From positions 186,001 through 250,000 of the forward strand of contig NW_027117342.1 of the NCBI RefSeq assembly GCF_038025025.1: a stretch of 64,000 nucleotides of DNA, written 5' to 3'. This stretch comes from Phyllosticta citribraziliensis. Lineage: Eukaryota. The notes under the pieces are model-generated. The model worked only from the letters and a program-made list of their open reading frames with translations. It did not search any database and was not told the DNA's origin. Shown here in pieces: positions 15,536-49,234 of the stretch. The first letter of the stretch is position 1; every line of letters begins with the position of its first letter. The position numbers and the translations under genes were made by a program.

Positions 15536-16961
15536 ATGAGCAACATCTTCGCCATGGCAATGGAGTTTTCAATCAGCAGTATCTCCTGGAGCCTGAGGCG
15601 GGACTGTGAGCAGTATCAGTGACTCACGCCTCTCTTGCTGACTCGATACAGGCAAGGAGTTCGCTCCACAGCTGGTTCAGCAAGGTGGGTGGAATACATA
15701 CCATCAGTAAAGTAGCTGACTTTTTCTAGTCGAAGCTCTCCACATTGCCTCGCGTGACTTTGAAGACGCGAGCTTCCTCCCCCAACCCGACACGCCGCTG
15801 AGGACGGGCTATGAACTACTCGTTGGCCGCTGCTATGCCAATCTTCAGGAACTCGAGGGCCTCGTCAATTATCGGAGACAGAGTTTGCGGCGCGGCGATG
15901 CAGTCGCGGCAGAAAGCACTGCGGTTCCTCTGCAGAGGCTCATGTCCAAGCTGTTGGAGAATGCGCAGGCATACAGAGGGCTTCAGGAGGCCATCGAGGC
16001 TGCAGCTCGCCCATTAGAGCATCCCGGAGTCGCGAGTCCACCATTGTCGCCACAAGTCCAAGCGACTACTGCCAATATCCCAGTATCGCCTCAGGAATCA
16101 CCTATGCGGCTTCAGCCGTACGCAGAGACGGTCGTGGATAGCGAAGACGAGCCTTTTGAAATAGTTGTCCCCGCCGAGACCGAGCCTACATCACCTGTTT
16201 CGCCTGTCCAAAAGCACGAGGGACCGAATCCAGCCAGGGAGCGTTCGACTGCCTCTCAGCGCAATGCCATTCGCAATGATATGACCAAGACAAGTCAAAA
16301 TTCAACCACCGAGAGGCAGGAGAGATCAGGCCCTCGTGCAACGCGGCGAGATGAGCCTAGGCAGCGTCCTCGGCGAAAAGTGACGAGCGACAGCCAATCC
16401 ACATGGAGTTCTGCAGCAGAGTGCGGCAGTGTCGAAGAGCTGTCCAACGAACCGCCGACCGACCATCGCAGACGCCTAGCTAGGCGGGCAAAGAACAAGG
16501 AAAAGTCGACCCAGGAACTCCACGCAGAGATTCGTCGCGAAGAGGCGGCCCAGCATACCAGATTTCAACAGCCGCTTGACAACTGGCAGCCAGGCCGCTC
16601 ATGGTTCCCGCCGCCAACGGCAACATACTCGCTACCGCAGCAGTTCCAAGCACCGTCGCCGTACCTCGACAGCTCCGCGTTGAACCCAGGCTTCGCCGGC
16701 ATGCCATACCCGTACCAGTACGCAGCACAGTACACGGCATATCCTTTTCGGCCAGGCTACCCGACGGCGGCTGGGTGGCAGAATACTTACCAACAGCATC
16801 CTTACCCTCCACCAGGGTCGCCTGCGCCACCAACGTCTGTGTATAATCCGGCGCCAAACTCGGGAGCGAAAGGGCGGTGTAATTGCGCGAGCAGGCCGGA
16901 GTCCGAGCGGGTGTTTTATGTTGACGAAAAAGGGACCTGTCACGTTTGTTTGCACTGGTAG
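15536..16961 (+). CDS. Hypothetical protein: fungal N-terminal helical (SesA/HeLo-like) region, P/Q/Y-rich linker, C-terminal CxC...CxxC; exons 15536-15605, 15652-15684, 15730-16961
   Basis: Two GT..CTGAC..AG introns join MSNIFAMAMEFSISSISWSLRRDCKEFAPQLVQQVEALHIASRDFED in frame to the 15885 ORF; the domain call is by pattern resemblance only. Confidence 0.65.
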
Positions 16962-17467
16962 AGACAGTTGTTTGTAGAAGCAAAGCGTTGGAGCGACGGG
17001 ATGCCTCAGGCTGCAGCCAATGACTCGAGTGCCAAGGCTTGACATGTTTGCGGGAGCTCCTCCTCTCCCACCGACGCAACCTGAACCCACCACCAAAGCC
17101 GACAACCTCACCAACTCACCTCCCACGGCCTCCCGAAACCCTCGCTCCTCGCTCACCCACAATCCCACACACCTCCCACTCACCACCAATTGCATTTCGC
17201 TGAGGCTCTGTGCCTCCCCCTCGCTCACCGCCCACCGCCCTCCGCAACACCTCGCGACTGCGTGCCACAGCACCTCCCGACTCCCCGTTACCGGCGCACA
17301 GCAAACCCTCATCGACGTTGTTCACATCTTCTGACCTGCCGTCTTCTCTGCTGCCTCAACCCACCGACGTCACTTGTTCCCGAACGCCGTCACATTGTAC
17401 GCTTCTTCGCCTCTCCCAACAAGCTCACATCTCGACGAGCGCCCTCTGTGGGAGCTCGTCCCACGTC

Positions 17468-20049
17468 ATGCCGGTCGAGATTGTCCGCTACACCAAGGAG
17501 CAGCTGCTCCACTTGAAAGATTCGCCTTTGGTGCACAAGCCCGACGGTCTCCCCTCGATTGAACAATGGATGGAGTACGTGGTCCCTCTCGCCTTGCCCG
17601 TGGCACTGACCTGACACGTTTGTAGCGTTCCGCAAGAGCAGCAAACCACGCAGCGCAAAGGCCGCACACAGAGCGGTCGCGGCGACGACCAAACGGCAAG
17701 CCAAGAAAATGGCGCCCAGCGTTCGCTGTTCCCTGGAAAGCACTTGACCAGACACTCTAGCACAGGTGCGTCCTGCCGATTCCCGTCCTGCCGACGAGCT
17801 AACACGTTGCAGCGCCCGAAGACATTGTGCTTGGACCGCCCAAGACTGCCTTTGCGTCGTCGTCGCGCGTCGCCAAGCTGTCCGACCTGAGCGAAAAGGA
17901 CGACGAAGCGACGGCCGAGCGCGTCAACATCCGCGACAAGTTTTTCAAAGAACGCGAGAGCGAGCGCAGCAAGAACGGCACCGTCAACGGCCGCCGCGCG
18001 AATCGCGAAGAAGGTGAGGGTTGGACCAATGTGCGGGGGCGTAGGACGTCGTTTGCAGAAGACGGCGTTGAGCGCCCGCCGCGCATGGGACGCTTCACCC
18101 GCGACGCCGCCGATGGCGAAGAGACGACACCTCGCCGCAAAAAGTTTGAGCAACCATGGGGACGCGACAGTGCTGAAAAGGAGGGCGAAACTTCGCACAA
18201 GAGCTGGCGCGATCGTCGCGACGACCGCTGGACCCGCGGCAACGAGCGCGTCGAAGAAGATCCGGAGTGGATTGATGCAGCGCCGAAGAGAAAGGATGAC
18301 GTTGGCATGGGGCGCTTCGCCCGCACCAAGGGCCCTGAATGGCTCAATGACGACCCCAAGGACGACAAAAAGGTCCACACGCAAGAAGACTTTCAGCGTT
18401 GGAAGGAGAGAATGAAAGCTGGCGCTGCGGTGGCAGAAGATAAGGAAAACACGCCGGAACCCCCGTCGGCCAAGGACACGCCAGTCTCGTCGAAGCCCAT
18501 CACTCCCATGGTCATCGAGGGCAAGGATATGTTTGGCATGTGGGGCGCCGCTGCGGTCAAGCAGTCTGAAGCCCCTTCGACTACCGAAGGGGCGCCTGTG
18601 CCTAAGAACAAGCCGCCGCAAAAGTCGTCCAAGTTTGCCAAGTTGTTCACCCCGCAGGAGGAGCAGATGCCGCCCCAGCCTCCCCCGGTAGAGCAACAGC
18701 AGCCGCCGCCAATGAGCCAGGCCCCAGCCGATTCCAACGAGGACAAGGAGGGATTCCAGCGCATCTTGAACTTGCTGAGCAATTCGAGCATCAGCCAGGG
18801 TCAACAATCCCCTGCACCCAATGGCCGGAGCCAAGGCACACCTGACCGCAATACCATTCACGCGCAGCCACAGCCGACTCGTCACCACATGCTGAGGTCG
18901 CGCGAAGAAAAGGCTGGCTTCATCGAGTCTGTCCTGTCTCGTGGCACGCCAACGGATTTCAAGGGGCCCCAGGGTGCCTTTGGTCCTTTCTCGCCGGCCA
19001 CCGACCCCGGACAGGAGCAGCCAGTCCGTCCGGAGAGCATCCGTTCTGGCGAAGAGCGTCTGGGACCCGCAACTCCCAACAGCAATGGCATGCATCAATT
19101 TGGCATGATGGGAACCCAGGCCCCGCCTCCGCCGGCCCAGCTCTCGCGTGATAGAGAGTTCTTGCTTAACTTGATGACTGGCCCACAGCGCAGCACGCCT
19201 CCTCAGCCCACTCAAGCTCGCCCGCCTCCTCCTCCCGACATGTTTGCTGGTGCGTTCATGGACAAAAAGGTGCCGCCATTCATGGAAAACCCTGTCATGG
19301 GGCCCCCGCAGCCTCCTCGAGGCAATCCTCCTCCCGGTCTATTTGAGGAACGCCAGTTTCCGGAAAATGACGTTCGCTATCAACCCCAGCCGCCTCGTCG
19401 GATGCCTGAGAACCCCGAAATCGAAAATGCCATGCGCCGTGCCAGTCGCTTCAACCTACCTATCCACCTCGATGACCCCGCAATTGCCCACATCCAGCGT
19501 CGCAACACAGCCGACGGCGGTATGCCCAGGAACCAGCCTCACAACATGGGCATTCCGCAACAGCCGCCACCTGACCAGCTGTGGACTATGAAGCCGCCTG
19601 GTCTGCAGCAGCCTCAAGAGCGACCTCCCGCATCCATGGCTCCTCCTCCTGGCTTCCCTGCTCCCAACGCCAATCCCCAGATTCGCGGACCTCCTGGCTT
19701 TGTTCCCGGCCCTGCCAACATGGGCTTACCGCCGCCATTCAGCGCTGGCAACACTCCTCTCGGCCACCCCGGCATGCAAGTGCAGCGCGGTCCCGGCCCG
19801 GCAGCCATGTTCCCTGGCCAGGGTCCGCCGCCTGGTTACTTTGCGCCTCCACCTCCTGGTCCGCCTCCTGGATTTGGCCCCGGTCCCGGTCCCATGGGTC
19901 TTGGTATGGGAGGTCCTCAAGGACAAGATATGATGGGCATGCGCGCGGGCGGCCCGCCTCCGGGCATGGCGCGCCCGCCAAACGGCTTTGACATGTTTGA
20001 TCGGTCTCTTGGACGCGGTCAGGGCAAGGGCGGCTCGTACCGCCTCTAA
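17468..20049 (+). CDS. eIF4E-binding protein of the Eap1/4E-T type; exons 17468-17574, 17626-17765, 17813-20049
   Basis: N-terminal YxxxxLphi motif (RYTKEQLLHLKDSPLVHKPDGLP), EEDPEW, HTQEDFQRWKERMK, SSKFAKLF, Pro/Gly-rich tail with PPG-phi repeats. Confidence 0.75.
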
Positions 20050-21580
20050 AACGGGGTCGACGTTTCATTTCCATTTGCCGGCCGGCTTGCTGCTAGCCAG
20101 CGAGATACGACCTGATCAGATGAATCATCTGTTGCTGTTCTTGAGTAGTTTTCTGGTCATGCATGCACACGTTTCTGACACGACACGTCATGGCATTAGG
20201 ATGATGGGGTGGGGTGGGTCTTTGCCGCCACCGAGTGCTACAGGATTAACTGGGGGGACAAGGCATCATCATCAGCGGTCATGGATTTCGGCCTGTTTTT
20301 GCGTCTTGTTCGTCCGTCTGCCCCTTCTTTACGAAGCCTTAATCATCATCATTATCTTCATCATCATCTTGCCCAGGCCTCTTTCTTGCACTTTTTTTCC
20401 TTCCTTCTTCAACTCCTTTCATCTGTCTGGGTACTCGAGCGAGGGAGTGAATGGTTGATTGGTGGGCAGGTCGGTGGGAGGGCGGGCTAGTGGGTGCGTG
20501 GGTTGAAAATGGCGGGCAGTGCCTCTTTTTGTGTTTTTTTCCCTCTTACGGAGCGTTGACCATGGTTCAACTTTTCCCCCTTCTTCTTCTTCTTCTTCTC
20601 CGCCTGCGTAGCGTTTCAACCCATTTCTCTCCGCCCTCCGACCTTTTCTTTTTCTCCTTTTTTCCAACTGCAGGGCGGGAGGCCTCGGCTGGTCTGGTCT
20701 GGGCTGGTCTGGGCTGGCATCTGGATTTTTTGATGACTGAGTGACACTTGACTCTTGTTTCTTTCTCTTTCTCGAAGAAAATCTTCTCTGTTGCAACTCT
20801 TCTGCGTGTAATGTACGCGTGGTGTGGTATGGTTTGGTCTCTCCTCCTTGACTCCCGCCTCCTCTTGACCCCTCCCACCCTCAAAAAAAATCTCCTCTTT
20901 CGCTGCTGCTTTCTGTCATTGGTTTCTCCTTTTTTTCTTTCTTGCTTTTGGTATGCCAGGATGGCGAAATGGCTCGTTGGCATGCATAGCAGCTAGACTG
21001 CGTCTTGTCGAAATTGCCTGCCTGCCTGTCTGCCTCCCCCTCTGTCTACTGCTGCCCTAGTCTGGCCGCTCGTCTCTTTTGTTTTTTCCCAATTTTTACC
21101 CTTTCCCTTCGTGTGCATTACTATTTTCTGCATCCCCGCTTTCTCCTCTTCTCTCTCGCTGGCGCGTCAGTCCATCTGTCTGTTTTTCTATCTGCGTGGG
21201 TGGGCTGGGAAGTTTTCTGCGCGTGTATGTGTCCGCGTCAGGAGAGGGGGCAAAAAGAATATCTGGTCTGGTCTAGTCTGTTCCGGTCTGGTCTGTCCGT
21301 CTGCCTGCTCCGCGCCGTGCTCTGCTGTGGTACGCCGCGCGCTGTGAGGTACGCTCGTCTGCTGCTTCTAGATGCTCCCTCATTGCACACATCAACCGAC
21401 TCTTCGCTTCGCTCGGTCGTTTTAAGTATTACTTTTGTCGCTTGTTGGAGATTCTTTGACTGACTGCAGGAGGTAGACGGATATGATGGACCGGTGGACG
21501 GATGGACGAAGTGGCAGACGGACAGATAGTCAGAGGGATGAGTAGGCCGTTACAATCAGTCGGAAGGGGACTTGGAGACG

Positions 21581-21603
21581 TGCTTGCTTGCTTGCTTGCT
21601 TGC
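21581..21603 (+). repeat. (TGCT)n microsatellite
   Basis: tgcttgcttgcttgcttgcttgc. Confidence 0.8.
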
Positions 21604-22466
21604 ATCATTCACGCAACGACAGAGCCATACCAGCTTCTCTTTCTCCTTCTCTTCTCTTTCGAGTAGACGAAGCGGGAGGCCAGCGACAGCGGCAGTGTGC
21701 TGTCGAATTGCGTGGTCTAGCTAGCTGTATGCATGCCGGAAGATGACAGGCTGGTAGGGTGGTAGGATGGGACGAGACGAGTGGAGGCGGGGGGCGAGGG
21801 GCGAAGAGACAATTGGGGTTGGATTGAGTGGGAAAAGGTCGGTCATGCCGCGCGCTTGCCGTGTACCTACCTATGTATACAGGCAGGAAGGCCATGAATG
21901 AATGGGTGAAATGACAAAAGTTAGCCAGGTGGATGAAACGACAGGGTGTTTTGCAACCGTCGGTGCAGTTTGCATATTCACATCCACACGCAACGACTTT
22001 TCAGGAGACCAGAGCAGACGCCAGACGACATCAGAAACGGATATCAAAGGAAGGCCGAAAAGGAAAGGAAACAGCAATTGGAAAAGTTCAATTTTCATTC
22101 TCTTTCTTCTCTCGTCTCTTTTCTTTCCATCTAGCGCTCTAAAACGTACGAACCAACCAACCGACCGACTGACCGAACAATCAATCCAAAACTATCATCA
22201 AGCTACCACGACGACGACGACTACTGCTCCTCCGCCTTGTTTATGTGTACAATTACGCACTCCCAGCCATCAACCAATGCTTTCTTTCGCTTTCAACAGA
22301 AGAGAGGACGACGACGCTGATATGCCCGCTTGCTGACGACGACGACGACTACGGCTTCTACTGAGCACAAGGGACGAGGGACGGGGGGGGACGAAAAATA
22401 GGCCATCAACTAATCAATCAGCCGCCCGCCCGACGGGCAGGCCAGTCCACGAAAAAGGGGGGTTTC

Positions 22467-41571: not shown

Positions 41572-43155
41572 ATGGCGCACACAATCTCGTCCTTTTTCGA
41601 GATTGAAGAGCCGCCGGGAGACAAACACATCACCGACCCGCCTCGGGCCCGCCAGAAATCAGTCTCGATTCGATCACCCTCGAACCAAGCAGAAGACCAC
41701 CTCGTCTTCGGCGAGACAATCGACGGACGCCGCCATGTGCGTACCGACTCGCAAACGTCCAACATCACGGCGGGCACGGCAACGCCGCACACGCCGAGCG
41801 AGCTGGAGCACAACAGCCGGTCGGCGTCGCCGCTCGACGTGGCCTCGATCGCGCAAACGTTCTGGAACCCGCCGATGAACCGGTGGCGGGTGCTGTGCTG
41901 CTGCCTCGTGTACTTTGGCGACGGGCTCAGCGACTCGGCGCCGGGCGCGCTGATCCCGTACATGGAGAGCGCGGCCGAGTACAACGTGGGCTACGCCATC
42001 ATCTCGCTCATCTTCATCAGCAATGCGGCGGGCTTCATCGCGGCGGCGTTCGTCACCAGCGCCATCAACGAGCGGTACGGCCGCGCGCGCAGCCTCGTAC
42101 TGGCCGAGATCACCATGATTGTCGGCTACGTGATGCTCGTGGCCACGCCGCCGTTCTGGGTCGTCGTGTGCTCCTTCTTCCTGCTGGGCTTTGGCTACGC
42201 CATCGGGCTCGCCCTGAACAACGTCTTCGTCGCCAACCTGGCCAACTCGACCATCATCCTCGGCCTGTGCCACGGCTCGTACAGCCTGGGCGGCACGCTG
42301 GGCCCCATCCTCGCCACCGCCATGGCGTCCCACGGCATCCGCTGGTCGCGGTTCTACTTCATCGCGCTCGGCACCCGCGTCGTGTGCGCCGTCTTCAACG
42401 CGTGGGCGTTTTGGAACTACGAGAAGGAGACGGCGCCGGCGGGCGTGCAGCTGCTGTCGGGCCCGGAGCAGCGCTCTGCCGCCGCCGCCGCCGCCTACAC
42501 AGACTACACATCGCGATCCGCCGCCACCGACGAGCAGCAGCCGCGCGCCCAGCGGCCCGAGTCCAAGCGCTCGCTGCTCAAACTGGCGCTGTCCAACCGC
42601 ACGACGCTCACAGGCGCGCTCTTCATCTTCCTGCACCAAGGCGCCGAAGTATCCATCAGCGGGTGGATCATCTCATTCCTAATCCACTACCGCTCAGGCG
42701 ACCCGTCACAAGTCGGCTACGTAACGGCGGGCTTCTTCGGGGGCATCACACTCGGGCGGCTCCTCCTCGTGCACCTCACGCGCCACGTCGGCGGCGAGCT
42801 GCCCTTCGTGACGGGCCTCTCGCTCGGCGCCATCGCCTTCCAAATCCTCGTGTGGCAGGTGCCGTCGCTGCTGTCCAACTACATCTCCATCGCCGTGCTG
42901 GGCTTCCTGCTCGGGCCCATCTACCCCTGCTCGCAGACCATCATGGTGCGCCTGCTGCCGCCCAAGATCCAGATGAACGCCGTCGGCCTCATCGAGGGCG
43001 CGGGCTCCTCGGGCGGCGCGCTCGCGCCGTTCTTGACGGGCCTGCTGGCGCAGGCGAGGGGGACCTGGGTCGTTAATCCCGTCTGTGTTGCCATGTTTGC
43101 GGGCATGTTGGCGTGTTGGTGGGGGTTGCCGCGGGTGAGGAAGCCGGTGGAGTGA
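41572..43155 (+). CDS. MFS transporter (Bsc6-like)
   Basis: About 12 hydrophobic segments; GLSDSAPGALIPYME, HGSYSLGGTLGP, QGAEVSISGW, GFFGGITLGR, GPIYP. Confidence 0.88.
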   Translation: MAHTISSFFEIEEPPGDKHITDPPRARQKSVSIRSPSNQAEDHLVFGETIDGRRHVRTDSQTSNITAGTATPHTPSELEHNSRSASPLDVASIAQTFWNPPMNRWRVLCCCLVYFGDGLSDSAPGALIPYMESAAEYNVGYAIISLIFISNAAGFIAAAFVTSAINERYGRARSLVLAEITMIVGYVMLVATPPFWVVVCSFFLLGFGYAIGLALNNVFVANLANSTIILGLCHGSYSLGGTLGPILATAMASHGIRWSRFYFIALGTRVVCAVFNAWAFWNYEKETAPAGVQLLSGPEQRSAAAAAAYTDYTSRSAATDEQQPRAQRPESKRSLLKLALSNRTTLTGALFIFLHQGAEVSISGWIISFLIHYRSGDPSQVGYVTAGFFGGITLGRLLLVHLTRHVGGELPFVTGLSLGAIAFQILVWQVPSLLSNYISIAVLGFLLGPIYPCSQTIMVRLLPPKIQMNAVGLIEGAGSSGGALAPFLTGLLAQARGTWVVNPVCVAMFAGMLACWWGLPRVRKPVE

Positions 43156-43858
43156 GACGGAGGGGAGGGAGGGAGATGGAATCTGTCCGTCGGTCAGTCG
43201 GGCTGGCACCTCGGTTACATTCAGATGCTTGGGATGGACGACGACTGCTGCTGCTGAGTGGTGTGGGCAGATAGACTACGTACAACAAGTGAGAATCACG
43301 TCGACGTAGACGAGACGTTTCAGAACACGGTCACAAAATACAGAAAAAAATAAACAAAGCGACATGTCTACTTCCCATCTCAGTCTTGACATCTATATCG
43401 CAAGGCAGGTAGACGGGTCGGCAAGGAGCGCTGGCAGGTTCTACGAAAGAGTAAAGAGGGAAGAAGACAACAGGCGGCGCAGACTAAATTCAAATTCCAT
43501 CCCACCTGATTAGACACAATTTACTAGATTAGTCCACAAAGGTTGACGCAGTAAAAAAAATAAAATAAAGAAAAGGAGCAAAAAAATAAAAGGAATTCGA
43601 GGAAAGGGAAAGCAGCCACCCAGCCAGTCAATTAAGTTGGTCAATCAAGCAGCCAGCCGATCCGGGAACTTTTTCTAATAGCAAGTAGGTAGGTAGGTAG
43701 GTAAGTACCTAACCCATCATCCACCCTCCTATCCTTCCGCCTCCTACCCTTCTTCCATCTTCCACCCCCTCCTGTCCTACCCTTCATAAATCTTCCATCC
43801 GCCCATCCTCCACCCTCCCTTCTTCCTCCTTACAAACACGACAGTACCCCTGCTGCAC

Positions 43859-46800
43859 CTACCAGTCCTTCTTAATGTCAAACGACCACTCAAACTTGAG
43901 GTGCGTCTGGTTGTCGTCGTCGACGAACTTGGACACGGCGTTGTAGTGACCGCGCGTCATCATGCCCGAGGGGGCGACTTCGGGCTCGACTGTCCATGGC
44001 AAGCAGGGTCGCGTTAGCCACCGATCCATTCCTCTACCACGCGCGAAAAGAGGGGGAAGGGAAAGGGAGCCCCCAAGCCCAACGGCAGGGCATGATGGGA
44101 CCAGCAGACTCACACTTCTTCTCATAGATGGGCTTATCCGTCGTGTTGGGCCCGTAGCTGCCAATCATCTCCTGCGTCTTCTGGCTGACGCCCATGCGCT
44201 TGATGACCTGCAGGTACTTGAGGCCCGACAGGATGTGGTGCTGCACCTTGAACGTCACCTTCATGCGGAACTGCGCCCCCTCCTTGATCGTGAACGGCTT
44301 CTCCTTGAGGTGGTCCACGGCGCCCGGCGCAGACAGGTCGATGACGATGTCCGGGCGACCCTCGACCTGGTCGTGTGCGGCGGCTGCTTAGCAAAATGCG
44401 TTTTGGGACGAGTGATGGTGGTGGTGGTGGTGGTGCCGGCTTGCTTACCTCGAGACCCAGTGAGAGGATGATGACTGTGCGAGGGTCGTTGGGGTCGGAG
44501 ATGGTGTTGCCCGAGCCAATGCCCAGGCTCTCCTTCCACTTGCGGAGAGACTCGTCATTCTGATCTACAATCAATCACATTAGCAACTCCTGACGACGAC
44601 CTGCATGTGCTTTGCTGCCTGCGTTGAAGTGAGTGAGAGACAGTCAAAAAGGAATGTCATTGATGGAAAGCTGGCGCGTAGCAAGAGAGCTTTTTAAAGC
44701 AAAAAAGTCACTCCAAACTCCAACGCCAGCAGACCACAAATGACCCCCAAAACTAATTCGCATCGCTCAAATGTGATTTGATTCAGTGCCTGCTGGAAAC
44801 CCTCTTCTGCTTCACTCTGTTGCAAGAGCAGACGAGGGATGACTTTGAGAGACCAAGTCTTGCCTCCTCTCGAGCCAGAGGCAAAAGAATGCAGCGGTAT
44901 TTTGACAGCGTCATTCAATGCTCGACCGCTTCGACTTTCCCCTTCGCATGAGAAGCTCCGAGACTGGGGACTGTCGACGATGTCAAAGTATGTCAAGTAG
45001 CTGTGAACTCCACCGCGATGTCTGGGAAAGTGACGGCTCCTTGACGCTGTCGGCCTGCACATGTTTCTGGGCCAGTCCAGTTGCTTCTGAGCCGGGAATC
45101 TCATCGACTGGTCCGGCCTCGAAACAGTCGTTTTGTTGGCTCGCAAAAAGCAATCGCTGCTGCGCATCCTCGAGTACAGGGAGTATGCAGTCGACAGAAT
45201 GTCGCATCACGTCCAATTCCCGCCGTTTGAGCTCGCCGTATGTCTGACGAAGCTTGTCGGTGTGGTAAACGAACAATTGAGTCAGATGTTGCAATGACAC
45301 GTGTGGCATGCCATCCGAGGAATCCGAGTCGATGGAGCGATTTGAAAGCATTGAAACGACAGGGATTGAATGGGTCTCAAACTGTGGGGGCTCCTTTTCT
45401 GACTTGGACGAACAAGAGTCCCTCCCATTCTGTGGCGATTCAGAGGCCGAAGCATGGGAGTTGCAGCCGAACTTCTTTTGACAGCTGGACGGCTCGTCGT
45501 CCATGGGCGGAAATACAGAAACTCGCAGCGGAGAGCTGTGCTGTGGTGCATGAGACGTCCTCAAAGCATGGCGGCAGCCTTGGTTCGCCTGATATCGATG
45601 CCACGGTCTGTGAAGTGGCGTCGACAGAGTGTGCTCGGAAGAGTAGGACAGTGCTGCCGATTGCCGTTTGGTTGTCCCGCCACCAGTGTTGGAGGAATCA
45701 GGCGCCGGTGGTCTTGTACTCGAGCCATTTCCCCCAGAGGGACCTGGTGGAGGTCCACCAGATGAATCGTCGTGCGGTGGTTGGTAATTGGTCTGATCAA
45801 CCGAGTCGGACGAGTCAGAATCAGAGCTAGAGCTTGAGCCTGACGAGTTTTTACTGGACTCTTCATTGTCGGCACGGCTAGCATCATCTTGGGCCTCTCG
45901 TTGCGCCTCCAGCGGCGACTGGTCATCAACCCGTGATTGTGTCGTCCGTTGGGAAGCTTGAGTATTCTCATGGTCCTCTCTGGGCGCTGCAGTCTCGCCA
46001 GGGTCAGAGGAGCGTCGGAGAACATCGGTCACGGTTTGCGATTCTGTCGAGGGCTTCTTCTTGGACAATTTCCCCCGAAATATTTCAAACGCCTTCCCCA
46101 GGCTGCTCTCTTTGAGCCGCTTGGCCAACTCCTTTCTCCGGGCATTGCGTTCGCATTGAATCCAATCTTGCCGGCGTTTCTTGGCTTCCAAGATTTCCAC
46201 GTGCCGTCTTGAGCGCTCTTTCTGACGTGACTTTCTTATTCCTTGGTCAACCATCTTGAAGAATCGTGAGGACAAACGCCGTTGCTCTTGCCTTTGGCGG
46301 AATGCATTGTAAGAACCAGAAATCGTCGAAACGTGTCTGCCGAATTTGGTATCTGCCAAACGCTGTCTGCGTCGAGCCGCTCGCAGACGGCGCTCTTGCC
46401 TCCTGTTTTGCTTTTCCATGGCTTTGATGGCTCTGCCCCGTTGTCTCTCTCTTTCCAGAGGAAGTCTTTCTCTGGCCTCTTGCAACATCCGCTCTTGTTC
46501 CTCGACAGCGTTGAGCTGAATTTTGATGCGCTCTCGCTTAATCGTGGCCGCCAGTGCAGCTAATCTCTGGTCTAATGTGTTGTTTATGATGATATCGGAA
46601 TCCCTTGAGGCACGAGGATCAAAGCTAAATTCAGCGTCCGAAGGACTGGAAGGGTCATGCTGAGCAGCTGGCTCTGGTGCATGAGAGTTGAGTTGATCCT
46701 TCCGGCGGATTGCCAGAGATCTGAGCATGCGAATTTTCCGGCCATTGGCACTGCTGAGCGCCCTATGTTGAGACCCTTGGCCCTCAGAAGGGTTGGCAGG

Positions 46801-48446
46801 TGCTGTTGGGGTCTCGGCAACATGGTTGATGTCCCCTCTGCCCTCTTCACCAAAGCCGTGCGGCAGTGGCAAGTCGGGTGTGCGGACAGAGAAGATATTG
46901 AGTTTGAGAAGGTGCCCAGATGGAGGTGGAAAGAAGGTTAGCTTGGACGGTTTCTCGGCCTGGCTGGGGTTGGAGAGCCTTGGTCTTTGGTAGACTGGAT
47001 CGCTGCGACGATTTTCCTGGCTCGATTGGGTGCCTCCGCGTCGAATGGCCTCCAAGTCGGTGCTTGAGAGCTGGGGAAACGTATTGGTGTTTGGACGGTC
47101 TGGACGGTCTGGAGCTCTCGTGTTGACACGACGAAGATGGAATGGCCAGTGTCGTCTGGGGTTGAGACTTCTCCCTGTTTGATAGACCGGATCGCTGGGG
47201 TCGGTCTCCTGGCACGACAGGGGGCCTCTACGTCGAATGGCATCAAGGTCGCGTCTCGAGAATTGGGGGAACGCATCGACGGTTGAGGTATTGTGGGCTC
47301 CCGTATCGGCTGGGCGAAGGTCGAATGACCGATGTCCTCTTGGGTGGCGTTGTCGGCGTACCTGATCTGCTCCCTCGCCAGCTGGTTGGTCGGGAACAGG
47401 ACGATGACGCGGTAACCTGAGATGGCGGCGCAAGGAATTGAAGCCCCGGCTATGGTACGGTTGATCCGATACGCCCGAGGCGTTGTCGTGCTGGACTCCA
47501 GTCCGGGGTCTGGCGGAGCGCGATCGGAAAAGGAACGATGGTCGCCAGGAGCGTCGGTGGGGCCTTTGGCGCGAATTGGAACGAGAGCGGCCTGACGATG
47601 GCATTTTACCGCAGCGTTTGATGGGGTACAATGAGGAAATGACTTGTAAAATGGTCCAAAAGACTCAGAGGTCCTTCTGTTCGGCTGTCAAGCTATGGTG
47701 GCTTTTTCTTGATCAAACGAGCGTCACAGCAAGAGGCCGTGGAGGCGGTGGTATTTGATGTGAATACTGAATGTCGATGTCGATAATGACAGTTGGAGAA
47801 ACAGGGTGGCGATGGAATGTTGCTGTCAAGAAGAAGAAGCAGATGAAGATGGAGGAATCGAGCCATGGTGAAAGCGAGCGAGTAGCCACGGTGGATTACA
47901 AGGCGACTTCTCTTTTTGGAGAGGCAGTCATGAGCAGGAGGACCGAGATTGGCGGGCATTTTGGACCCATTGGCTCAGCGAGAAAGCGCATAGGCAGCCA
48001 GTGAGGCCCGTGTGTTTTGGCAGGAGCTCGTCAGGGGTAGCCATATTTTTGGAGGTTGTTGTTTTTCTTTTCTTTTTCGTAGTACCAGGTGCAGTGATGA
48101 GTTGCGGCTCAACGGCATGACGTGCATGTTGGCGGCTGCAGAGAGCGGGCAAGTTGTTTTGGCGGGGCCAGGCACCTCGTGTGGCCGAGGCAAGCTGTCC
48201 CTCGCTCTGGATGACTTGGCATGGCTACATGCACCAGGACGGCCATGTCGGTCGAATGGCACAGCCAAACATGGTGACGAGCAGCGGCAGATGAATTGAT
48301 GCAGGCAAGCAAAGCACATGGACGGCAGAGGGGGATGGGGGAGGCGACTCACCCAGCTGCTGGTACTCGTCGATGGTCTTCTTCTCGCCGACCTTGAAGC
48401 CCTCGGTCTGCTCGGGGGTGAGCTCGTCTTCGTGGCCGTCAACCAT
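43859..48446 (-). CDS. RDI1: Rho GDP-dissociation inhibitor; exons 48446-48353, 44564-44449, 44366-44114, 43989-43859 (intron 1 = 3,788 nt)
   Basis: Exon 1 MVDGHEDELTPEQTEGFKVGEKKTIDEYQQL (phase 1, GTGAGT donor) joins DQNDESLRKWKESLG; also KPFTIKEG, GSYGPN, APSGMMTRGHY, FEWSFDIKKDW. Confidence 0.92.
44604..44622. repeat. Inverted repeat arm near the RDI1 intron 1 branch point; pairs with 48301-48320
   Basis: catgtgctttgctgcctgc versus the reverse complement of 48301-48320, catgtgctttgcttgcctgc. Confidence 0.9.
44983..47604 (-). CDS. Orphan ~873-aa ORF nested on the same strand in RDI1 intron 1 (Arg-rich, coiled coil, Ser-rich)
   Basis: 2.6-kb stop-free frame; first ATG at 47604 (aaaATGcca); charged coiled-coil segment and an internal duplication; no recognised domain. 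Confidence 0.65.
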   Translation of the reverse strand: MPSSGRSRSNSRQRPHRRSWRPSFLFRSRSARPRTGVQHDNASGVSDQPYHSRGFNSLRRHLRLPRHRPVPDQPAGEGADQVRRQRHPRGHRSFDLRPADTGAHNTSTVDAFPQFSRRDLDAIRRRGPLSCQETDPSDPVYQTGRSLNPRRHWPFHLRRVNTRAPDRPDRPNTNTFPQLSSTDLEAIRRGGTQSSQENRRSDPVYQRPRLSNPSQAEKPSKLTFFPPPSGHLLKLNIFSVRTPDLPLPHGFGEEGRGDINHVAETPTAPANPSEGQGSQHRALSSANGRKIRMLRSLAIRRKDQLNSHAPEPAAQHDPSSPSDAEFSFDPRASRDSDIIINNTLDQRLAALAATIKRERIKIQLNAVEEQERMLQEARERLPLERERQRGRAIKAMEKQNRRQERRLRAARRRQRLADTKFGRHVSTISGSYNAFRQRQEQRRLSSRFFKMVDQGIRKSRQKERSRRHVEILEAKKRRQDWIQCERNARRKELAKRLKESSLGKAFEIFRGKLSKKKPSTESQTVTDVLRRSSDPGETAAPREDHENTQASQRTTQSRVDDQSPLEAQREAQDDASRADNEESSKNSSGSSSSSDSDSSDSVDQTNYQPPHDDSSGGPPPGPSGGNGSSTRPPAPDSSNTGGGTTKRQSAALSYSSEHTLSTPLHRPWHRYQANQGCRHALRTSHAPQHSSPLRVSVFPPMDDEPSSCQKKFGCNSHASASESPQNGRDSCSSKSEKEPPQFETHSIPVVSMLSNRSIDSDSSDGMPHVSLQHLTQLFVYHTDKLRQTYGELKRRELDVMRHSVDCILPVLEDAQQRLLFASQQNDCFEAGPVDEIPGSEATGLAQKHVQADSVKEPSLSQTSRWSSQLLDIL
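48301..48320. repeat. Inverted repeat arm 32 nt inside the RDI1 intron 1 donor; pairs with 44604-44622
   Basis: gcaggcaagcaaagcacatg; 19 bp of complementarity with a 1-nt bulge. Confidence 0.9.
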
Positions 48447-48934
48447 GGCTGCGCTGTGGGGTGATGGACGAGTGGGAGTGAGCGAGGGAGTGGGAGGGAT
48501 GGTGTTGTGGTAGAACAGAGTAAGGTACGGTAGGTGTTGTGAGTAGAGGATGGGAGACCCTTTTGGAACACCAGAGTCTCTCTCTCCCCCTCCCCCTCTG
48601 GCCTCTGGCCTGGCTCTGCCTCTGCCTCTGGGCCCCGCCTGGTCTGTGCGGGGCCTCCCCTGGCTGCAGTGACCGCTGACCGCCAAAACACTCGTCAAGC
48701 ACGTGCATGGCCCGATCGGGGTCAGTACAGGTACTCGCGTCGCCATCGCTGATGTGGTCTTGTGGATGCTGGTAACTACTGGACTCGTTGTAAAGCAGTA
48801 AACGGGACTGATTCCAAGTCGACGAGTGCCTGGATGACAGCTCTAGCTCGTACTGTAGCTTACGCCAGACCCGGCCAGCCTCTCTGTCTCCCTGTCGAGA
48901 AGCACCCAAAACCTTCCCGTCGTCCTCAACCCAA

Positions 48935-48985
48935 CTCTCACCCTCTCACCCTCTCACCCTCTCACCATCTCACCATCTCACCATC
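48935..48985 (+). repeat. 8-nt tandem repeat CTCACC(C/A)T in the divergent RDI1/bqt4 promoter
   Basis: ctcaccct x3 followed by ctcaccat x3. Confidence 0.8.
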
Positions 48986-49234
48986 ATGACTGCATCGCTG
49001 CTTCGCTAGCCATACCCACCCACCATCTTCATTCCGAACACTGCTCGTCCAGACCGCATTTTTCAGGGTGCAGGGGTGTAACCGGTCGCGTACCAAGCGT
49101 CCAAGCTCACTTCGCGTCGTGTCGTGCTCTTCTCTCCCGCTCTGCTGTCCCCCCAACCGTCCATTCCACAGCGACATCCACACCGACCGACTGCCTGCTG
49201 CGCACAGCTTCACTCCACCCCCACTGTCAACATC

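What the first reader, a model, noticed from the sequence alone, without database searches (positions are those of the whole stretch)
44565..48352. RDI1 intron 1 is 3.8 kb and hosts an intact ~873-codon gene on the same strand
Seen: RDI1 exon 1 (31 codons + 1 nt, GTGAGT donor at 48352) resumes in frame only at 44564 (GCTAAT..TAG|AT, giving ..QQL-DQNDESL..). The intron is 3,788 nt, while other introns reconstructed here are about 40-210 nt. It contains a stop-free 2.6-kb ORF (47604-44983) with no recognisable domain. Known: nested genes are uncommon in compact fungal genomes and usually antisense to the host. Inference: splicing (RhoGDI) may compete with intronic polyadenylation or an internal promoter (orphan protein), so one locus could switch between a polarity regulator and an unknown basic coiled-coil protein, possibly by developmental stage.
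Basis: partly seen in the sequence, partly recalled or inferred. Interest (0 to 1): 0.9.

Follow-up and report, generated by a model that had tools for sequence, protein, structure and literature searches.

The report
Orphan gene nested inside RhoGDI intron
The first intron of the RhoGDI gene of this Phyllosticta-like fungus really is 3.8 kb long and is spliced out, and inside it, on the same strand, sits a fast-evolving gene found only in this genus, an arrangement that public gene models of the genus get wrong.

Summary
RDI1 (RhoGDI, minus strand) has a 94-nt first coding exon (48446-48353). It resumes at 44564 after a 3,788-nt GT..AG intron, giving a 197-aa protein. Spliced contigs in three public runs from two organisms carry exactly this junction, at exon-level depth.

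The intron holds an 873-codon same-strand ORF (47604-44983). The longest open stretch in 500 shuffles was 299 codons. The ORF is kept open and alignable end to end in congeners at 90, 72 and 47% identity. It sits next to RDI1 in four named Phyllosticta species and is fused to RDI1 in a model of a fifth. A profile search of 1.84 billion cluster representatives found only one further relative. It has no Pfam, PDB or Atlas match. The model is about 70% disordered, with a basic helical hairpin.

Of 9 named public Phyllosticta RDI1 models, 0 match the RNA-supported form; they are truncated or chimeric.

The proposed switch is not shown. Intron-interior RNA is at most about 6% of exon depth, and its origin (own promoter or unspliced host RNA) is unresolved. 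This is a well-supported host/nested pair, unusual for a compact ascomycete genome but a known kind of arrangement.

The parts
48353..48446 (-). RDI1 (RhoGDI) coding exon 1, 31 codons + 1 nt; start codon at 48446
   Evidence: Its translation matches the N-termini of outgroup RhoGDIs P0006, P0009, P0129 and P0136. The contig junction to 44564 is in X1, X2 and X3.
44565..48352 (-). RDI1 intron 1, 3,788 nt, GTGAGT...CTAAT(44583-44579)...TAG
   Evidence: table 5: the joint 44564->48353 skips 3788 in 3 of the 4 runs laid.
44983..47604 (-). Nested single-exon ORF, 873 codons + TGA; genus-restricted orphan protein
   Evidence: M1 and P2 are invariant in 6 of 6 aligned homologues.
47605..48352 (-). 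748 nt between the RDI1 donor and the nested ATG; presumed promoter and 5'UTR of the nested gene (inferred, not shown)
   Evidence: One search shows pyrimidine-rich tracts. The contigs X1 rec5, X2 rec13 and X3 rec16 run from here 29-30 nt into exon 1 (table 8).
44565..44982 (-). 418 nt between the nested stop codon and the RDI1 acceptor; presumed 3'UTR and terminator of the nested gene (inferred)
   Evidence: The intron contigs of X1, X2 and X3 end at 44747, 44639 and 44606 (table 8).
46986..47285 (-). Internal tandem duplication in the ORF (108-nt units at 46986-47093 and 47178-47285, 72% identical), which gives the twice-repeated FPQ.S..DL.AIRR.G..S.QE...SDP.YQ motif
   Evidence: family D1. 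One search shows both copies conserved in the homologues.
46063..46617 (-). Residues 330-514: two long, very basic helices (330-418 and 432-514), the only high-confidence part of the model
   Evidence: block pLDDT mostly 70-95. (13-18 K+R per 50 residues). This is also the best conserved stretch with the distant relative P0124 (45% identity).
45127..45294 (-). Residues 771-826: conserved C-terminal helix (TYGELKRRE.D..H.VDC.LP.LED invariant)
   Evidence: invariant columns; pLDDT about 70; conserved in the P. capitalensis model P0142.
44449..44564 (-). RDI1 exon 2
   Evidence: X3 record 15, X1 record 4.
44114..44366 (-). RDI1 exon 3 (Rho_GDI domain)
43859..43989 (-). RDI1 exon 4 with stop TAG 43861-43859
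   Evidence: joint 43989->44114 in X1, X2 and X3.
44565..44660 (-). Stretch that the public 190-aa model P0004 reads as a false first exon (ATG 44660) plus a 23-nt 'intron' (44587-44565)
   Evidence: The N-terminus of P0004 equals the translation of 44660-44589, read directly.

Best explanation
This is a host/nested gene pair.

Host gene. The host is the conserved RhoGDI gene RDI1. Its short first coding exon lies 3.8 kb upstream of the rest. The primary transcript runs through the whole nested gene, and the 3,788-nt intron is removed efficiently with consensus-like signals (shown).

Nested gene. The intron houses a single-exon, same-strand gene. Its product is a 98-kDa, very basic, mostly disordered protein with a central basic helical hairpin and a conserved C-terminal helix. 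I take it to be a young, fast-evolving gene restricted to Phyllosticta and its closest kin. It is kept as coding sequence by selection (shown: open frame and block conservation in at least 5 species).

Expression (inferred). It is most likely expressed at a low level from its own promoter in the 748 nt upstream of its ATG. Its start codon and N-terminus are conserved, whereas the sequence just upstream is not kept in frame between species. From its composition I infer that the protein acts in the nucleus or on nucleic acid.

Consequence. Because the host polymerase must pass the nested gene's 3' end, the nested terminator must be weak or bypassed. Some mutual interference is expected but is not shown.

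Public annotation. Gene models fail here because predictors do not allow one 3.8-kb intron around another gene.
For: Junction:
- Contigs of X1, X2 and X3 join 48353 to 44564, at 21069, 456.8 and 1930 depth. Of the joints listed (2 more were not shown), no other reaches this acceptor.
- The resulting N-terminus matches the outgroup RhoGDIs P0006, P0009, P0129 and P0136 across the junction.

Coding status of the ORF:
- 893 open codons against at most 299 in 500 shuffles.
- Full-length homologues of 862, 835 and 823 aa at 90, 72 and 47% identity, with invariant blocks.
- A 483-aa distant relative at E 2e-35.
- The P. capitalensis model P0142 matches residues 623-854 at E 2e-24.

Conserved position:
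- Protein accessions of the nested gene and of the RDI1 model are consecutive in P. citrichinensis, P. paracitricarpa, P. citricarpa and two P. citriasiana assemblies, and the longest-contig lengths agree for P. citrichinensis and both P. citriasiana assemblies.
- The chimeric models P0128, P0138 and P0142 join nested-ORF sequence to RDI1 exons.
- X3 record 16 spans exon 1 to 44606 in organism B.

Transcribed interior:
- X1 record 5 (44747-48381, depth 1019) and X3 record 16 (depth 44) cover the ORF.
- The 124-nt intron 3 has no depth in any of the three runs: the bin values equal exon depth x 67/191 (my arithmetic).

Independent start: M1 and P2 are invariant in 6 of 6 homologues. The linker upstream of the ATG in P0138 is in a different frame from the window's.

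Not a mobile element or RNA host: no flanking repeats, no Pfam, no Rfam match at E<=0.1.
Against: No read-level data. Contigs cannot show a TSS, a poly(A) site or the strand, and the RNA label of the runs is a guess by the tool. I take them as RNA only because they hold spliced joints.

In all three runs the intron contigs run 29-30 nt into exon 1. Some interior RNA therefore comes from the host promoter unspliced, and all of it could.

Interior depth is only 0-6% of exon depth.

Constraint between the two closest forms looks weak. Of the 22 changed codons that one search listed for X3 inside the ORF, 15 are non-synonymous and 7 synonymous. That is roughly pN/pS 0.6-0.7 by a 3:1 site rule, from 40 of 508 table rows only.

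Codon-position GC is flat at 0.60/0.52/0.56, against a GC3 of 0.89 for RDI1. Other long ORFs of the window also have GC3 of 0.54-0.61.

There is no evidence that the protein exists. The exact 873-aa sequence is not in the 15-billion-protein collection.
Confidence: 0.7

Rival explanations
1. Regulatory switch. Transcription or polyadenylation of the nested gene competes with intron-1 splicing. The locus then gives either RhoGDI or the orphan protein, and activity of the nested gene lowers RDI1 output by transcriptional interference or intronic termination, perhaps in particular developmental stages.
For: The same-strand nesting makes interference physically possible. In mouse H13/Mcts2, active nested-gene transcription drives intronic polyadenylation of the host (PMC13309782, abstract).

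The intron contigs join exon 1 in 3 of 3 runs, but none of those listed reaches exon 2: they end 183, 75 and 42 nt before the acceptor, while spliced contigs join across (table 8). This would fit 3' ends inside the intron, as a weak hint only.
Against: The spliced form dominates in all three runs and the interior is at most about 6% of exon depth. No two conditions were compared. The contig ends lie at three different places, and the tool warns that holes prove nothing. RDI1 is a conserved single-copy regulator that would be costly to shut off.
Confidence: 0.15
2. The ORF is not an independent gene. It is a giant alternative cassette exon of RDI1, or part of a fusion isoform, as in the public 1,065-aa model P0138 (exon 1 + ORF + exons 2-4).
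For: P0138 exists as a deposited model. In the window, AG sites at 47664 and 47643 and a GT at 45008 are in the right phase, so such a product would be in frame.
Against: No contig joint from 48353 to about 47650, or from about 45008 to 44564, is listed in any run. X1 record 5 runs unbroken through both sites (2 joints were not shown, and rare forms are dropped from contigs).

The donor would be GTTCAC, far from the GTGAGT used at the real donors. The linker is not conserved in frame between species, while conservation starts exactly at M1. An insert of about 880 residues would split the N-terminal arm from the Ig-like domain of RhoGDI.
Confidence: 0.05
3. The ORF is a relic or a non-translated frame, and the interior RNA is only unspliced host pre-mRNA of a highly expressed gene.
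For: Low interior depth, continuity of the contigs with exon 1, a high share of non-synonymous changes between the closest pair, flat codon-position GC and a mostly disordered model.
Against: A 2.6-kb frame stays open in the window and in full-length homologues of 781 to 862 aa. These include ones only 47% identical, whose indels all keep the frame. The N-terminus, hairpin and C-terminal helix are invariant blocks. Shuffles reach at most 299 codons.
Confidence: 0.08
4. Assembly error, or a recent mobile-element insertion, separates exon 1 from exon 2.
For: None beyond the unusual intron length.
Against: X1 record 5 matches 44747-48381 with 0 differences. X3 record 16 spans the same interval in another organism. 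X7 has depth at 44642 and 44699, near the acceptor.

The same gene order is implied in four other named species. There are no terminal direct or inverted repeats at the intron ends and no transposase-like domain.
Confidence: 0.02

Closest known systems
Same-strand, single-exon nested genes in Drosophila melanogaster introns (Lee and Chang 2013, PMC3814207; passages read)
   Same: The gene lies wholly inside one intron of an including gene. It is on the same strand and has a single exon (72.5% of same-strand nested fly genes do). It evolves fast, and the host is conserved and broadly needed.
   Different: The fly genome has many long introns and about 10% of its genes are nested. Here the host is in a compact ascomycete genome, where the other RDI1 introns are 82 and 124 nt. 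The nested gene has no detectable parent gene, whereas many young fly nested genes are duplicates.
Mouse H13/Mcts2 host/nested pair (PMC13309782; abstract read)
   Same: A nested protein-coding gene lies in a host intron. Its activity could force premature termination of the host.
   Different: There, interference and intronic polyadenylation were shown by experiment and are controlled by imprinting and DNA methylation. Here nothing of the kind is shown and the spliced host form dominates.
Taxonomically restricted (orphan, possibly de novo) genes
   Same: No family match; found only in one genus plus one unnamed relative among 1.84 billion representatives; disordered, low-complexity, internally duplicated, with weak codon bias and fast change.
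   Different: De novo origin is not shown: no outgroup genome could be examined for a non-coding precursor. At 873 codons it is much longer than de novo genes usually are (recalled, not from a call).
Intron-hosted snoRNA or other RNA genes
   Same: A functional unit carried in a host intron on the same strand.
   Different: No Rfam family matched at E<=0.1 in 43400-49100. The conserved unit here is a long open reading frame.

Membership tests
RhoGDI (Pfam PF02115), host gene | Rho_GDI domain above the curated cut-off | tested here: met
   Exon 3 alone scores 85.4 bits against a cut-off of 26.5, E 5.2e-24. It is 100% identical to the same part of P0004 and 87% to that of B. dothidea RhoGDI.
RhoGDI (Pfam PF02115), host gene | Full-length architecture: N-terminal regulatory arm followed by the Ig-like domain, about 197-200 aa | tested here: met
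   The spliced model is 197 aa. Exon 1 plus the start of exon 2 reads like the N-termini of P0006, P0009, P0129 and P0136 (198-199 aa). I compared these by eye, not with an alignment tool.
Host/nested gene pair (gene within an intron) | The nested coding sequence lies wholly inside one intron that is really removed from the host mRNA | tested here: met
   Joint 44564->48353 in X1, X2 and X3. The ORF 47604-44983 lies inside it.
Host/nested gene pair (gene within an intron) | The nested unit is a real gene under selection | tested here: met
   The frame is open in at least 5 species down to 47% identity, with invariant blocks. Formal dN/dS was not computable because no coding DNA of relatives was at hand. 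A partial count gave 15 non-synonymous to 7 synonymous codons.
Host/nested gene pair (gene within an intron) | The nested gene has its own promoter and 3' end | tested here: inconclusive
   Contigs cover the interior, but they also run into exon 1 and cannot show starts or ends.
Alternative cassette exon or fusion isoform of RDI1 | Spliced junctions from exon 1 into the ORF and from the ORF into exon 2 | tested here: not met
   No such joint is listed in the 4 runs laid (2 joints not shown). Phase-compatible sites exist, but the donor is poor.
Transposable element or other mobile insertion | Terminal repeats or target duplication, and a transposase, RT or endonuclease domain | tested here: not met
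   No repeat pair brackets the intron or the ORF. There were 0 Pfam families at E<=1.
De novo gene | A homologous non-coding sequence at the syntenic site in outgroups | not testable with these tools
   No eukaryotic genome collection is held. The metagenome scan found no locus.

The most novel reading that the evidence does not exclude
The nested gene is a working part of RDI1 control. Its promoter fires under particular conditions, such as sporulation or host colonisation. By occupying the intron with polymerases and a terminator, it cuts RhoGDI output, so a genus-specific orphan gene has become a transcriptional valve on a universal polarity regulator. A bolder variant is that the in-frame exon1-ORF-exon2 product seen in one public model is really made as a rare giant RhoGDI isoform.
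Probability: 0.1. Interest if true: 0.7.

Novelty: new member of a known kind. Interest (0 to 1): 0.4.

Why it matters
Three points.

1. It corrects a systematic error. Of the 9 named public Phyllosticta RhoGDI models I saw, 0 give the RNA-supported 197-aa protein. Eight lack the conserved N-terminal arm and three are chimeras with the nested gene. The arm is the part of RhoGDI that contacts the GTPase switch regions (recalled, not from a call). Comparative or functional work on these models would be misled.

2. It is a clean case of a same-strand protein-coding gene nested in a spliceosomal intron of a compact filamentous ascomycete, conserved across a genus. Three literature searches found no paper on nuclear nested genes in filamentous fungi. 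That is no proof that none exists.

3. It offers a small system for asking how a host polymerase passes a same-strand gene's terminator, and how an orphan gene lives or arises inside an intron.

Tried and rejected
Searches and fetches that gave nothing:
- Whole genome: none is held for this window. Synteny and intron length in outgroups could therefore not be read from DNA.
- The look-up of sequencing runs listed no holder on record as RNA. I took X1-X3 as RNA only because they hold spliced joints.
- Metagenome scan with the ORF alignment: 553 pattern matches, none confirmed.
- ESM Atlas: no usable hit.
- PDB sequence search with the alignment: 0 hits at E<=0.01.
- Rfam: 0 matches.
- Earlier notes of this scan: nothing on this genome or sequence. 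The 8 word hits were unrelated.
- Kumar 2009 (PMC2747821) is not held. I know it only as reference 51 of PMC4363200.
- The Zymoseptoria re-annotation preprint has no mention of nested genes.

Results set aside:
- P0125 (Theobroma, E 5e-8, 7 repeated stretches) is a repeat-driven chance hit.
- I ran no fold search. The model's only confident parts are long helices, which match coiled coils of every kind.
- GC3 as a sign of foreign or non-coding origin: rejected, because other long ORFs in the window have a similar GC3.

Parts without cover: X1 has no depth at 44642 and 44699, and X2 has none in 46074-46264. The intron contigs stop at 44747, 44639 and 44606. These are different places and the tool warns that holes prove nothing, so I use this only as a weak hint under the switch rival.

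P0002 (835 aa) and the RDI1 fragment P0137 (169 aa, uninterrupted across the exon 2/3 and 3/4 joins) both report a longest contig of 4,050 nt. This could mean one RNA contig that keeps the intron interior but lacks introns 2 and 3. I could not fetch the contig, so this stays a guess.

Full report
What is there.

On the minus strand, an ATG at 48446 opens 31 codons plus one base. These end at a GTGAGT donor whose first base is 48352. The frame resumes at 44564, behind a CTAAT motif (44583-44579) and a TAG acceptor. With two further small introns of 82 and 124 nt, the four exons give 594 nt and a 197-aa product without a stop. Exon 3 alone matches Pfam Rho_GDI at E 5e-24. It contains an 873-codon ORF on the same strand (47604-44983) with no Pfam family at E<=1. 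The open stretch of 893 codons compares with a maximum of 299 in 500 shuffles of the intron.

Is the long intron used?

I laid four public runs on 43400-49100 (the one call allowed). The tool only guesses that they are RNA. X1, X2 and X3 hold contigs that skip the RDI1 introns, so they contain spliced RNA. The joint 44564->48353 (skips 3788; GT..AG on the gene strand) is present in X1 and X2 (organism A) and X3 (organism B), at depths 21069, 456.8 and 1930. In X2 and X3 that is the depth of the contig carrying exons 2-4. Among the joints listed (2 were not shown), none other reaches the exon-2 acceptor, so no nearer first exon is in use.

The junction also restores the conserved RhoGDI N-terminus. 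The outgroup proteins P0006 (Botryosphaeria dothidea, 199 aa), P0009 (Saccharata proteae, 198), P0129 (Diplodia seriata, 199) and P0136 (Aplosporella prunicola, 198) read ...EYQQL-DQNDESL... (P0136...DANDESL...) across exactly this point (compared by eye).

An assembly error is excluded. X1 record 5 matches 44747-48381 without a difference. X3 record 16 spans 44606-48382 in another organism. X7 has depth at 44642 and 44699, near the acceptor.

Is the ORF a gene?

The word-indexed search found three relatives:
- P0001, Phyllosticta citrichinensis, 862 aa
- P0002, unnamed, 835 aa
- P0003, P. paracitricarpa, 823 aa

They align from M1 to the C-terminal region at 90, 72 and 47% identity. Invariant blocks are the N-terminus, a twice-repeated motif, a basic helical region, an acidic serine tract, PPHDDS..GP.PGPSGG, and a C-terminal helix. 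Cluster members add P. citricarpa (823 aa) and P. citriasiana (823 and 781 aa). A P. capitalensis model, P0142, matches residues 623-854 at E 2e-24.

A profile search of 1.84 billion cluster representatives found only one further true relative, the unnamed 483-aa P0124 (E 2e-35; 45% identity over the helical region). It also returned one spurious plant repeat protein.

A frame of 2.6 kb that stays open through this much change, with all indels in threes, is coding sequence under selection. The selection is uneven, though. One search listed 22 changed codons for X3 inside the ORF (40 of 508 table rows were shown). Of these, 15 are non-synonymous and 7 synonymous. That is roughly pN/pS 0.6-0.7 by a 3:1 site rule of my own.

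Codon-position GC is flat (0.60/0.52/0.56), against a GC3 of 0.89 for RDI1. Other long ORFs in the window share a low GC3, so this is not diagnostic.

Is the nesting conserved?

Protein accessions of the nested gene and of the RDI1 model are consecutive in five assemblies:
- P. citrichinensis: ...117 and ...118
- P. paracitricarpa: ...202 and ...201
- P. citricarpa: ...232 and ...231
- P. citriasiana, two assemblies: ...042 and ...043, ...779 and ...778

The longest-contig lengths agree for P. citrichinensis and both P. citriasiana assemblies. I take consecutive numbers to mean neighbouring genes, which is an inference from how records are numbered. Three deposited chimeric models physically join nested-ORF sequence to RDI1 exons 2-4 (P0128, P0142, P0138). 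The ORF therefore lies upstream of exon 2 on the same strand in those species too.

Public models.

I saw 9 distinct named Phyllosticta RDI1 models:
- P0004: 190 aa
- P0005: 180 aa
- P0127: 173 aa
- P0131: 173 aa
- P0132: 170 aa
- P0135: 93 aa
- P0128: 321 aa
- P0142: 646 aa
- P0138: 1,065 aa

None equals the RNA-supported 197-aa form, and 8 lack exon 1. P0004 starts at an ATG at 44660 inside the intron and needs a 23-nt 'intron'. P0138 has exon 1 but reads the whole nested ORF as an internal exon.

A likely cause is a maximum intron length in the predictors. I recall a default of 3 kb in one common fungal pipeline, and did not check this.

Several Botryosphaeriaceae models (P0007, P0130) also lose homology at this same boundary. 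An intron therefore probably sits at this position there too. Its length is unknown to me.

The protein.

- 98 kDa, pI 10.3, with 13% each of Ser and Arg.
- AlphaFold2 on six sequences gives a mean pLDDT of 45.8, with 622 of 873 residues below 50. There are two long helices, 330-418 and 432-514 (block pLDDT mostly 70-95), and a helix at 771-826 (about 70).
- A 108-nt unit is duplicated 192 nt apart, 72% identical.
- No PDB sequence relative and no Atlas neighbour.
- The arginine- and serine-rich N-terminus, the basic hairpin and the acidic serine tract suggest a nuclear or nucleic-acid-bound protein. That is inference from composition only.

Expression of the nested gene.

Contigs cover the interior. 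X1 record 5 covers 44747-48381 at depth 1019, against 16,220-21,646 for the exon contigs. X3 record 16 is at 44, against 1930. X2 has patchy cover at 0-25, against 457. That is 0-6% of host exon depth.

The 124-nt intron 3 shows no depth at all in the three runs, since the bin values equal exon depth x 67/191 (my arithmetic). Short unspliced branches may simply be dropped when contigs are built, so this comparison is weak.

In 3 of 3 runs the intron contig runs 29-30 nt into exon 1. Some unspliced host RNA is therefore present.

None of the listed contigs reaches exon 2. They end 183, 75 and 42 nt short of it, at three different places. By the tool's own warning this is at best a weak hint of 3' ends inside the intron.

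I cannot decide whether the nested gene has its own promoter. The conserved ATG and N-terminus favour an independent start (M1 and P2 invariant in 6 of 6). So does the fact that the linker upstream of the ATG is in different frames in P0138 and in the window.

The fusion reading.

In the window, AG sites at 47664 and 47643 and a GT at 45008 are in the right phase. An exon1-ORF-exon2 product would then be in frame, as in P0138. The donor would be GTTCAC, no such joint is listed, and X1 record 5 is unbroken through both sites. I rate this reading as unlikely.

Comparison with what is known.

Nested genes are well described in flies and mammals. In Drosophila, 71% lie on the opposite strand. Same-strand ones are mostly single-exon, which has been read as selection against mis-splicing (PMC3814207, passages). 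The present gene fits that rule.

The mouse H13/Mcts2 pair shows that an active nested gene can force intronic polyadenylation of its host (PMC13309782, abstract).

The CodingQuarry paper on fungal gene prediction calls opposite-strand nested genes rare (PMC4363200, passages). Three searches brought no paper on nuclear nested genes in filamentous fungi.

Verdict.

The structural interpretation is supported and the switch is unproven. This is a new and well-documented example of a known kind of arrangement. It has practical value for annotation and some value as a model for same-strand nesting and orphan-gene evolution in fungi.

Noticed in passing
window 43400-43989 and beyond (to about 42505): X2 record 8 (1,884 nt) joins RDI1 exons 3-4 and the 3' flank, and runs about 895 nt past 43400. 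That reaches into the convergent 527-aa transporter-like ORF 41572-43155 (+). The 3' ends of the two convergent genes therefore probably overlap, or their transcripts were merged in assembly.
   Followed up: no
window 48935-48982: About six head-to-tail copies of an 8-nt unit (CTCTCACC on the + strand) lie roughly 500 nt upstream of the RDI1 start codon. Organisms B and E differ by indels around here.
   Followed up: no
window 44406-44443 (RDI1 intron 2): A (CCA)n-type microsatellite lies in the 82-nt intron 2. The read tool skipped it as a repeat.
   Followed up: no
window 17491-19338 (-) and 17803-20046 (+): Two long open stretches of 616 and 748 codons overlap on opposite strands, with similar codon-position GC. 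At most one is likely to be coding.
   Followed up: no
proteins P0007, P0130, P0134 (Neofusicoccum, Macrophomina, Diplodia): Public RhoGDI models of other Botryosphaeriaceae also lose the conserved N-terminus at or near the exon 1/2 boundary (P0134 slightly later). The first exon may be commonly missed in this order, whatever the intron length there.
   Followed up: partly
window 48225-48746 (-): An in-frame ATG lies 100 codons upstream of the RDI1 start (48746). Outgroup N-termini align with the start at 48446, so the upstream ATG is probably in the promoter or 5' leader.
   Followed up: no
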